Positions 13,055-14,765 of a stretch of DNA of 37,490 nucleotides are shown piece by piece. The stretch's first letter is position 1. Every line of letters starts with the position of its first letter. This DNA is from a virus (Duplodnaviria > Caudoviricetes), in the IMG/VR virus record IMGVR_UViG_3300045974_000383, positions 1 to 37,490 of that record; one strand, given 5' to 3'. The translations under genes were made by a program, and so were the position numbers. The notes below the pieces were generated by a model. That model searched no databases. It was not told where the DNA came from and saw only the letters and a program-made list of their open reading frames with translations.

Positions 13055-13090
13055 AAAAAAAGAGCGGAGCCTCGCACTAGCGCTCCGCTC
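13055..13090 (-). terminator. Rho-independent terminator of the pilin operon
   Basis: gagcggagc/gctccgctc 9-bp stem plus T7 on the minus strand, 7 nt after the pilin B stop. Confidence 0.9.
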
Positions 13091-13097
13091 GGAATGC

Positions 13098-13694
13098 TTA
13101 GTACACGTCTTCTGGTGACGCCTTACACGTTCGGAACATCACGTTTTGGTAAGTTGTCGATGCGCTGTCGAAACAGCCTCCAGAGTTCTCTGTGTACCAA
13201 CCTATGATACCAGTCGGAATTGCGCTGCCACCGTATGTTTGAACATAAGCGATGGTGGCAATTCCATTGTCATATGTGTAGCCAGGACTTACCCAGTAGT
13301 AGACGGCAGGATTGCTGTCGCCATCGAGATCACAAATCGTAATGACCTCGTACTGGTTTGTGTCCGACATGACCTGGTACGCACAGTATGTTGAGACTGG
13401 TTGATCTGAGTCCAATACCGCTGCAATGTCTGCAGATGACCATCGCATTTTGTTCGAACCAATTCCGTCCATTGCTACAGCAGGAACGAGACTGGTGCTT
13501 TTAACGGTATATGAACCGCCAAGGCTTTTGAGCTGAAGGTTCTGAAGGATCAGCTTCTGCATGACCGTGACTTCGGCTGATTGAGCCCTGTACTTGAACT
13601 TCTGGTATGTCGGGATTGCCAACATAGCCAGAACTCCAACAACCAGCACCACGATCATGAGCTCGACGAGAGTGAACCCTTTCTGGTTTTTCAT
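13098..13694 (-). CDS. pilA: Type IVa pilin (pilin B)
   Basis: Class III signal peptide MKNQKG|FTLVELMIVVLVVGVLAMLAIPTY (G-1, F1, E5, P22); four Cys; CDLDGD motif. Confidence 0.92.
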   Translation of the reverse strand: MKNQKGFTLVELMIVVLVVGVLAMLAIPTYQKFKYRAQSAEVTVMQKLILQNLQLKSLGGSYTVKSTSLVPAVAMDGIGSNKMRWSSADIAAVLDSDQPVSTYCAYQVMSDTNQYEVITICDLDGDSNPAVYYWVSPGYTYDNGIATIAYVQTYGGSAIPTGIIGWYTENSGGCFDSASTTYQNVMFRTCKASPEDVY

Positions 13695-13706
13695 GAGGTC
13701 CCTTCT

Positions 13707-13991
13707 CTATTTCGACTTTGAACTGGCCGTCTGAATGAGACCATCAATGCGCTTGATGTGACTCAGCATCCGCTGTCTTTGCTCAGGTTCGATACGAGGA
13801 TTGCTATCGATTTCCCGAGCAAGCTGAGTCACATACAAGCTCATGTAGGCCATTCGTCTGACCCATGGAAGACCTCTGAGGATGTCAAGTCCTTTGTCTT
13901 CCATGAGCAGCCGATATTGCTCGGCTGCTTCCTCTTCCTTGGTCCGAAATGGAGTGATCGGACCTGTTACAAGCCTTCCGATCGTCTTCAT
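13707..13991 (-). CDS. Hypothetical cytoplasmic helical protein between the two pilins
   Basis: 94 aa, 6 nt after the pilin A stop; no TM or signal sequence. Confidence 0.7.
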   Translation of the reverse strand: MKTIGRLVTGPITPFRTKEEEAAEQYRLLMEDKGLDILRGLPWVRRMAYMSLYVTQLAREIDSNPRIEPEQRQRMLSHIKRIDGLIQTASSKSK

Positions 13992-13997
13992 TGGGAT

Positions 13998-14555
13998 CTA
14001 GAAGATCCCCTCGGCAGTGTTCTTGCAGACCGAGTCGAACGTTCCGGTGCACTCGTTGCCGAGCGTCACTCCTGATGGAGCCCTCAGAACGGGAGTGGCG
14101 CCCGATGCATCCGTCCACGGATGGACGAACAGGTACTGTGCAGTAACTGCATCACCGTCCACGTTGCAGTCGGCCTGGGCGTACCAGGCGCCGGTCTCGG
14201 TCGCCGCACCCTTGGCGACCTTGTAGCTGCAGAAGGCCGGCCCGCTGATCTGCACATCAAGACCAGCGAGTGCGGCCAGGTTCTCCGGCGTGAGCGCCAT
14301 CTTCGTGCCATCCGTCGCCGTTGGAGCGCGGGGGATGTCAGCGAAAGTGACGATGTTGCCGGTCTGCACGAACGAGAGCTGCTCGGCCTGAGCGAGAGCG
14401 CTCAGGTTCGAAGGCGCCTCGGCCAGCTTCGCCCTGTAGCCGAACTTCTGGTACGCCGGGATCGCCAGCGCCGCCAGGATGCCGATGATCATGACCACGA
14501 TCATGAGCTCGATGAGGGTGAAGCCGGACTGCTGCTTGCGGGTGTTCTTGTTCAT
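13998..14555 (-). CDS. pilA: Type IVa pilin (pilin A), 185 aa
   Basis: True start ATG 14555 with [45 protein letters not shown]; four Cys; CNVDGD motif; high GC3. Confidence 0.94.
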
Positions 14556-14736
14556 GGTATGAACCTCAGGATGGGAGAGAGAACAAACTTCCAAGGTGAG
14601 GTCCCGTTCTGTAATGACAATCCTTCGTGCCATTACACCTTCTACGGAACTTATTCGGTTTTCAAGGAACTTAATCCGACAGGCTTCTGCATGGTGCAAA
14701 CCCGAAGGCCACGAGGCCTTTCCCAACCAATACCAG

Positions 14737-14765
14737 ATTATAAACCTTTTGAAATATGAAGTAAA
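14737..14765 (-). promoter_or_regulatory. Sigma70-type promoter P3 (pilin operon)
   Basis: TTTACT-17-TATAAT. Confidence 0.85.

What the first reader, a model, noticed from the sequence alone, without database searches (positions are those of the whole stretch)
13055..14765. Phage-encoded two-pilin operon: candidate type IV pilus remodelling / receptor-swap system
Seen: a complete transcription unit (consensus promoter, long leader, pilin A, 94-aa ORF, pilin B, strong terminator) in a 37-kb tailed phage. Both pilins have intact class III signal peptides (G|F1-x3-E5, P22), and the genome has no pilB/C/D/Q/T, so they could only be processed and assembled by host machinery. Known: T4P are common phage receptors, and described phage anti-pilus factors (Pseudomonas phage Tip and Aqs1, acting on PilB) inhibit the motor rather than supply pilin subunits. 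I do not know a characterised tailed phage with a major-pilin-like operon. Inference: the pilins co-polymerise with, cap or poison host pili. That could block superinfection or competing pilus phages, or alter twitching/social motility and cell contact to help the phage spread.
Basis: partly seen in the sequence, partly recalled or inferred. Interest (0 to 1): 0.92.

Follow-up and report, generated by a model that had tools for sequence, protein, structure and literature searches.

The report
Phage pilin cassette with swappable slot
An uncultured 37-kb phage carries two intact pilus-subunit genes and a small partner gene but no recognisable pilus-building genes, so it likely re-coats the pili of its probable myxobacterial host to keep other phages from attaching, a trick already shown for single pilus genes of other phages.

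Summary
Observation confirmed. The complete circular genome holds promoter - pilin-1 - orf94 - pilin-2 - terminator on the minus strand. Both pilins pass the prepilin cut-offs; no pilus machinery, integrase or repressor was recognised. The block is native. Its promoter (TTTACTTC-N15-TATAAT) is one of four in this region (0.01 expected), and contigs of the probable source run cover both junctions at even depth. A second contig (L285) keeps the pilin end, orf94 (65% identical), terminator and promoter but lacks pilin-2: pilin-1 + orf94 is the core and pilin-2 a variable slot. The pilin heads are Myxococcota-type (best fold match: M. xanthus pilus). None of 44 related phage records has a pilin. 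Likely function: early-expressed pilins are assembled by the host machine and change the pilus surface, blocking superinfecting or rival pilus-binding phages (about 50%). Pilus shutdown or behaviour change remain open; nothing is tested. Virus-borne pilins are known: P-FimU (tested), P-PilA (predicted), and two tandem pilins in archaeal virus SNJ2 (tested). This scan also noted myxobacterial-type phage pilins on other DNA. New here are the conserved orphan partner and the optional second pilin. New variant of a known kind.

The parts
14737..14765 (-). sigma70-type promoter TTTACTTC-N15-TATAAT, one of four copies in the accessory region
   Evidence: (4 found, 0.01 expected, 0 of 100 shuffles)
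14556..14736 (-). long leader; holds a 10-bp inverted repeat (14610-14637) overlapping a TGGCACG box whose -12 partner is off register (possible relic of a host sigma54 pilA promoter; inconclusive)
   Evidence: (leader fold z -1.6)
13998..14555 (-). pilin-1: type IVa major-pilin-like prepilin, 185 aa, 11-aa leader, 4 Cys, GC3 0.83
13707..13991 (-). orf94: basic protein with no hydrophobic segment (predicted cytoplasmic), no known family; conserved directly behind the pilin in L285 (65% identical)
13098..13694 (-). pilin-2: divergent paralogue, 198 aa, 6-aa leader, 4 Cys, GC3 0.55; absent from the same slot in L285
13055..13090 (-). intrinsic terminator (9-bp stem, U7); the L285 copy keeps the stem with one two-sided change
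12986..13014 (-). next promoter of the same type, starting the following operon; also conserved in L285
10537..10565 (+). sister promoter of the same type (context)
15388..15416 (+). sister promoter of the same type (context)

Best explanation
The phage carries a native three-gene cassette with two intact type IVa pilins that likely re-coats the pilus of its probable Myxococcota host early in infection, so that other pilus-binding phages would no longer attach. Shown by sequence or calls: operon anatomy, intact class III signals, no recognised phage pilus machine, a phage-type promoter shared with three other accessory operons, pilin + orf94 kept in a relative, pilin-2 present here and absent there. 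Predicted: the pilin fold. Inferred: (1) host RNA polymerase transcribes the cassette at once, without the PilR/sigma54 control that host pilA needs; (2) host PilD processes the prepilins and the host machine polymerises them; (3) pilin-1 (first gene, host-like codons, conserved head) is the bulk subunit that dilutes or replaces host PilA, possibly helped by pilin feedback on PilS-PilR lowering host pilA; (4) pilin-2 is a fast-evolving add-on that widens the range of phages excluded; (5) orf94 is a cytoplasmic helper of this swap, target unknown.
For: Prepilin motifs over cut-off. The AlphaFold2 model on 28 sequences has pLDDT 87 and pTM 0.77; its best match among 48,161 chains is the M. xanthus pilus 8TJ2 (Z 8.3, 132 aligned, rmsd 3.5), and ranks 1-6 are all pilins. 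Heads are full length with 4 Cys and 51-64% identical among the three pilin-1 orthologues, which fits a subunit that is kept functional. The promoter occurs 4 times against 0.01 expected. The 11 accessory genes are GC3-richer than 11 virion genes (p 2e-4, 134); pilin-1 head GC3 is 115/146 against 86/164 for pilin-2 (p 1.5e-6, 134). L285 keeps the pilin end + orf94 (75% DNA identity), then goes straight to the terminator and promoter (76%). In the tree, pilin-1 orthologues have short branches (0.12-0.66) and pilin-2-like proteins long ones (1.8-2.5), in one group (95/91) next to Anaeromyxobacter-type pilins. Precedent: P-FimU is built into pili and blocks adsorption (PMC12952977). Host pilA needs PilR/sigma54, and PilS senses PilA (PMC6211767, PMC6058289).
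Against: There are no expression, processing or assembly data. The receptor of this phage is unknown; its putative fibre gene matched no solved structure. No integrase or repressor was recognised, and the capsid gene occurs in only 1 locus among GTDB genomes. The phage is therefore probably lytic, which leaves little time to replace existing pili; the tested precedents are proviral. Pilin-1 heads are only 31-32% identical to the nearest cellular pilins, so compatibility with the host machine is assumed. The core-versus-slot reading rests on one 1,020-bp contig, whose pilin 5' half and viral nature are not seen. The tree rows came from a profile built on these proteins, and long branches meet. 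Foldseek gave no PDB hit at E<=0.001.
Confidence: 0.5

Rival explanations
1. SNJ2-like use: the phage pilins form working, dominant pili that change host behaviour (social motility, adhesion, biofilm, cell contact) or serve as a receptor for a helper virus, helping the phage spread rather than excluding rivals.
For: SNJ2's two tandem pilins use host PilB/PilC, dominate the cell surface, act as SNJ1 receptor and promote biofilm and motility (PMC12426801). M. xanthus social motility depends on pili. The heads here are full length and conserved. No DNA polymerase, primase or helicase was recognised among 50 ORFs (one weak polymerase/primase PHROG hit, E 0.009, on an HNH-like ORF), so helper dependence is not excluded.
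Against: It needs a long-lived infected state, and no integrase or repressor was seen. A fast-diverging, optional second pilin fits phage-versus-phage competition better than a motility function. 0 of 44 relatives need pilins.
Confidence: 0.2
2. Pilus shutdown: the pilins act as decoys or dominant-negative subunits (titrating PilD/PilC or silencing host pilA through PilS-PilR) and orf94 is a Tip/Aqs1-like motor inhibitor, so infected cells lose pili altogether.
For: Small phage proteins Tip, Aqs1 and Zip disable pilus extension (PMC11656802). orf94 is small, soluble and tied to the pilin. PilS autoregulation by PilA is reported. Sztanko et al. raise poisoning for truncated P-PilA. It would act faster in a lytic cycle.
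Against: A decoy needs only the N-terminal helix, yet the heads and their cysteines are conserved among orthologues and model well. orf94 matches no known family or structure.
Confidence: 0.18
3. Passive cargo or assembly artefact: a host pil fragment picked up recently or joined in silico, with no benefit to the phage.
For: Absent from 44 related records (7 at least 90% complete) and from 80 loci. Pilin-1 GC (0.63) exceeds that of the virion genes. The two Logan contigs overlap by only 27 nt inside pilin-1, so no single contig bridges that spot.
Against: The phage-type promoter and terminator frame the block. The same frame and orf94 recur in L285. Each junction lies inside a long contig with 0 differences at depth 160 or 139, and the break sits on the pilin N-terminus shared with many other organisms. 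Other accessory genes are equally GC3-rich. The pilin group was not found in GTDB genomes by its peptide patterns. No host pil neighbours are present.
Confidence: 0.07

Closest known systems
P-FimU of F10-like Pseudomonas prophages (Sztanko et al., Cell Rep 2026, PMC12952977)
   Same: Phage-encoded pilin subunit without pilus machinery, own promoter; incorporated by the host machine and blocks phage adsorption.
   Different: P-FimU is one minor tip pilin expressed from a prophage. Here there are two major-pilin-like genes plus an orphan partner, in a phage with no recognised integrase and a probable Myxococcota host.
P-PilA: PilA-like genes of Xylella prophages and of virulent Nankokuvirus, Queuovirinae, Biquartavirus and Atlauavirus phages (same paper, section 17, Table S3)
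   Same: Major-pilin-like genes in tailed phages, including virulent ones; the same exclusion hypothesis.
   Different: Untested. In the passages I read they are described as individual proteins, some cut to about 60 aa; Xylella P-PilA is about 50% identical to host PilA. No conserved partner gene or second-pilin slot is described there.
SNJ2 PilA1/PilA2 of haloarchaeon Natrinema (Xiang et al., Cell Rep 2025, PMC12426801)
   Same: Two tandem paralogous viral type IV pilins in one operon, exported by host PilB/PilC, dispensable for the virus's own cycle.
   Different: An archaeal integrated provirus whose pilins are 73% identical and adjacent and act as receptor for a second virus. Here the pilins are 38% identical and separated by orf94, in a bacterial tailed phage.
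Tip, Aqs1, Zip pilus-motor inhibitors (review PMC11656802)
   Same: Small phage proteins that alter type IV pili for superinfection exclusion; a possible model for orf94.
   Different: They inhibit PilB or PilZ-PilB and supply no subunits; no family match links orf94 to them.
Myxococcus xanthus PilA (PDB 8TJ2; NCBIfam NF041775)
   Same: Best sequence and fold match among solved structures.
   Different: Only 59.9 and 39.3 bits against a cut-off of 400 (15); the head belongs to a different Myxococcota subtype with a DxDGD-like motif.

Membership tests
Type IVa pilin (prepilin) | Short basic leader, G|F1, E5, hydrophobic N-terminal helix (class III signal) | tested here: met
   both pilins
Type IVa pilin (prepilin) | Long N-terminal helix packed on an antiparallel beta-sheet head | tested here: met
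   pilin-1 model pLDDT 87 (77), Z 8.3 to 8TJ2 (145); predicted, not solved; pilin-2 not modelled, aligned at 29% over the head
Type IVa pilin (prepilin) | Cleavage and methylation by PilD, and polymerisation into a pilus | not testable with these tools
   needs expression in a host
Major (not minor) pilin | Closest to PilA-type families; forms the bulk of the filament | tested here: inconclusive
   best hits are PilA and homologues named PilA; weak ComP-type hits in orthologues and Atlas rows; abundance in pili untested
Myxococcus PilA equivalog NF041775 | Score of at least 400 bits | tested here: not met
   59.9 and 39.3 bits
Phage-encoded pilin defence (P-FimU/P-PilA type) | Pilin gene inside a phage genome, without pilus assembly genes | tested here: met
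Phage-encoded pilin defence (P-FimU/P-PilA type) | Own promoter for expression in the infected cell | tested here: inconclusive
   promoter motif significant and conserved; transcription not observed
Phage-encoded pilin defence (P-FimU/P-PilA type) | Incorporation into host pili and block of phage adsorption | not testable with these tools
   bench assay
P-FimU proper | FimU-like minor tip pilin expressed from a prophage | tested here: not met
   PilA-type best hits; no integrase or repressor recognised
SNJ2-type two-pilin viral operon | Two paralogous pilins in one viral operon, no viral PilB/PilC | tested here: met
SNJ2-type two-pilin viral operon | Integrated provirus whose pili serve as receptor for a co-resident virus | tested here: inconclusive
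   no integrase recognised; 1 of 44 relatives is classed as provirus by IMG/VR; receptor role untested
Tip/Aqs1-type PilB inhibitor (for orf94) | Binds PilB and stops extension | not tested
   no family or structure match for orf94; no binding test was run

The most novel reading that the evidence does not exclude
A phage lineage of Myxococcota keeps its own pilin family with a dedicated, previously unknown cytoplasmic partner (orf94). Together they take over the host pilus within one infection, silencing host pilA and building phage-specified filaments. A hypervariable second-pilin slot works as an exchangeable antigenic cassette in phage-versus-phage competition, and the new pili may also steer infected cells' social motility into the swarm.
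Probability: 0.2. Interest if true: 0.8.

Novelty: new variant of a known kind. Interest (0 to 1): 0.5.

Why it matters
Phage major pilins have been listed but, in the papers I found, never tested. This cassette gives a compact test set (pilin-1, orf94, pilin-2, with a natural variant lacking pilin-2) for asking whether an apparently lytic phage can re-coat or silence a pilus. It points to a host phylum where pili drive social motility and predation and where few phages are described. orf94 could be a new regulator of pilus assembly or of pilA expression.

Tried and rejected
Chimera: rejected (the run may be the source of this DNA, so it is not independent of the assembly). Sigma54 promoter in the leader: a TGGCACG box is present, but the -12 element is one base off and reads TTGT; TGGCAC occurs 21 times in the window, so it is at most a relic. 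Identity of the 38,674-bp ENA contig(s) holding P0005 and P0007: no capsid homologue with that contig length was among the 120 listed of 582, so whether it is one contig, and whether a phage, is inferred only from the equal length and source. Close pilin or orf94 relatives in IMG/VR: none (peptide-pattern searches, low sensitivity). In GTDB: 0 confirmed of 103 pattern matches. In cultured phages: none for pilin-1 or the capsid protein; the pilin blank is uninformative because BLAST's low-complexity filter is on and Table S3 lists GenBank phage pilins. Relatives of the 169-aa accessory gene: none. The promoter scan of viral contigs was too common to be useful (about 3,200 stretches). orf94 function: only weak hits (sigma factor E 0.04, 15; DUF6417 E 0.06, 89; homeobox E 0.4, 90; Atlas best 0.84, 72), all rejected. 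The first AlphaFold run on 4 sequences was poor (pLDDT 49, 60). Foldseek gave no hit at E<=0.001 in PDB or BFVD, although pilins ranked first in PDB. No RNA holder listed. No Rfam match or tRNA. Literature: 'phage-encoded pilin' 0 papers; Myxococcota + phage + pilin 1 unrelated review; 'P-PilA' 5 listings; a further search 1 unrelated. In a 2026 myxophage survey preprint, 'pili' and 'pilus' occur 3 times, none about viral pilins; its supplements were not seen and might list such genes.

Full report
The genome. The window is one virus record with an exact 127-nt repeat at both ends, so it is a complete circular assembly. I scanned 50 ORFs, chosen from the ORF lists, against Pfam and PHROGs. These gave terminase (PHROG 2, E 7e-39), a P22/SU10-like portal, ejection- and virion-type proteins, HNH and endonuclease VII genes, a KTSC protein and ribosomal protein S21. 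No tail sheath, tape measure, integrase, repressor or pilus-assembly family was recognised; a short-tailed, probably lytic phage is my inference. The 409-aa gene at 3748-4977, which I take as the major capsid from its position, has 582 relatives at E<=1e-150 and 54-79% identity in 80 IMG/VR loci. It has no match among 50,697 GenBank phage records, and one confirmed locus among GTDB genomes: a 16-kb contig in a Chlamydiae MAG, probably mis-binned.

The minus strand carries pilin-1 (14555-13998), orf94 (13991-13707) and pilin-2 (13694-13098), with 6- and 12-nt gaps. Both pilins pass PF07963 and TIGR02532 and have a basic leader, G|F1, E5, G14, P22 and four cysteines. They are paralogues: 38% over 144 aa, 29% over the heads. 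A pilin-1 model built on 28 sequences is confident (pLDDT 87, pTM 0.77). Its best match among 48,161 solved chains is the M. xanthus pilus (Z 8.3, rmsd 3.5, 132 residues), and ranks 1-6 are pilins. Foldseek ranked pilins first without reaching E<=0.001.

The block is native to the phage. Its promoter TTTACTTC-N15-TATAAT occurs four times, all between 10.5 and 15.4 kb, against 0.01 expected (0 of 100 shuffles). Eleven genes of this accessory region have higher GC3 than eleven virion genes (p 2e-4), which suggests early genes tuned to a high-GC host. One public run holds the stretch (possibly its source). A 15,165-bp contig (depth 160) covers 9000-14522 and a 22,255-bp contig (depth 139) covers 14496-17500, both without differences. 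They break only on the pilin N-terminal DNA that many other contigs share. Their overlap is 27 nt, so that one spot is not bridged by a single contig.

Relatives redefine the cassette. Pilin-1 has two close orthologues, P0004 and P0005 (64% and 61%). A head-only profile run over 1.84 billion representatives gave 39 hits, adding P0006 and P0007 and then cellular pilins. P0005 and the divergent P0007 both lie on ENA contigs of 38,674 bp. This is probably one element with two pilins, but I could not fetch it, and it was not among the 120 capsid hits shown. The metagenome scan confirmed 1 of 405 pattern matches, L285. It holds a pilin end, an orf94 homologue 65% identical, the terminator and the same promoter. 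DNA alignment runs through pilin end and orf94 (75%) and then straight into terminator and promoter (76%); the terminator stem has one two-sided change. Pilin-2 is therefore an insertion here or a loss there, and pilin + orf94 is the core. In a 23-row tree, the six proteins form one group (95/91) beside Anaeromyxobacter-type pilins; pilin-1 orthologues have short branches and pilin-2-like proteins long ones (rows were chosen by a profile of these proteins, and long branches meet). Pilin-1 head codons are host-like and pilin-2's are phage-like (GC3 115/146 against 86/164). The cassette is rare in the clade. I searched 44 records reached from 45 of the 80 capsid loci (one not held; 7 at least 90% complete): 0 matched PF07963 or orf94. 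Profiles found nothing in the 80 loci while finding the window and L285; only 24 of the 80 loci reach 10 kb upstream of the capsid gene.

Host. Named homologues are from a Myxococcota bacterium and an Anaeromyxobacter (most hits are unnamed). Four of five Atlas feature rows and six of seven structure rows are commonest in Myxococcota. The gene after the promoter in L285 weakly resembles MXAN_6577-like proteins (E 0.003, far below cut-off). Myxococcota is probable; no direct host link was obtained.

orf94 has no hydrophobic segment and net charge +5, and matches no family or structure. Its conservation behind the pilin is the only clue to its role.

Mechanism. The best reading (0.5) is pilus re-coating for exclusion. 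A consensus promoter would free the pilins from the PilR/sigma54 control that M. xanthus pilA needs (PMC6211767, passages). Host PilD and the motor would assemble them, and pilin feedback on PilS, reported in P. aeruginosa (PMC6058289, passages; the primary paper was not held), could lower host pilA. The changed surface would block pilus-binding phages, with pilin-2 as a variable extra. Every functional step is inferred. The main weakness is timing in an apparently lytic phage and the unknown receptor. Rivals are behaviour change or helper-virus receptor (0.2), pilus shutdown (0.18) and passive cargo or artefact (0.07).

What is known. Sztanko et al. (PMC12952977; I read the abstract, sections 13, 17 and 18, and supplement passages with part of Table S3) showed that phage FimU enters the pilus and blocks phages, and listed untested PilA-like genes in prophages and virulent phages. 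Xiang et al. (PMC12426801; abstract and Results parts 1-2 of 3) showed two tandem viral pilins assembled by host PilB/PilC in an archaeon. Tip, Aqs1 and Zip are motor inhibitors (PMC11656802, passages). PHROGs has a pilin family. IMG/VR gave 99 pilin-like loci of 209 pattern matches; 8 of the 80 fetched hold two or three prepilin genes. I scanned neighbours for 16 of 21 selected loci (111 of 146 ORFs): 6 have a phage repressor-like gene beside the pilin, 5 have head, tail, replication or integrase genes, and 5 are unclear. Earlier notes of this scan describe myxobacterial-type phage pilins on other DNA (unchecked), but none on this stretch or orf94.

Verdict. The feature is real, native and of a known kind. 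The variant features are the conserved orphan partner, the optional fast-evolving second pilin, a phage early promoter in place of host control, and a probable myxobacterial host. Interest 0.5.

Noticed in passing
window 9690-9899 (-): Ribosomal protein S21-like gene (PF01165 33.2 bits over cut-off 27; TIGR00030 25.9 under 28.95) two genes before terminase in a 37-kb phage; not found by tblastn in the 80 related loci. Phage bS21 is described in large phages (10.1101/2021.10.11.463225, search listing only).
   Followed up: partly
window 23397-25601 (-): 734-aa protein among the virion/ejection genes with an ART-PolyVal ADP-ribosyltransferase-like domain (PF18760, E 2e-15); possibly an injected host-takeover enzyme.
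   Followed up: no
window 10537-15416: Four near-identical TTTACTTC-N15-TATAAT promoters drive a cluster of small high-GC3 orphan genes (up to 0.93), a probable early host-takeover region.
   Followed up: partly
window 14610-14637: 10-bp inverted repeat in the pilin leader overlapping an off-register sigma54-like box; could be an operator, an mRNA hairpin or a decayed host promoter.
   Followed up: partly
window 11815-11889 (-): 24-codon lipoprotein-like ORF ending at an early TAG after a short collagen-like motif; possibly a truncated gene.
   Followed up: no
window 848-1 and 37363-36007 (-): One putative fibre gene crosses the circular junction and contains an internal repeat; no family or structure match.
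   Followed up: partly
L082, L085, L087, L096, L118, L141 (pilin at about 10037; 6552 in L087): A recurring class of high-GC viral records with a full-length PilA-like gene beside a phage repressor-like gene, a likely prophage P-PilA family.
   Followed up: partly
L130, L132, L133, L135, L139, L121, L158, L160: Viral contigs with two or three prepilin genes, unrelated to this cassette.
   Followed up: no
L285 697-1020 (+): Secreted cysteine-rich protein weakly like MXAN_6577 behind the shared promoter, where the window has a different gene.
   Followed up: no
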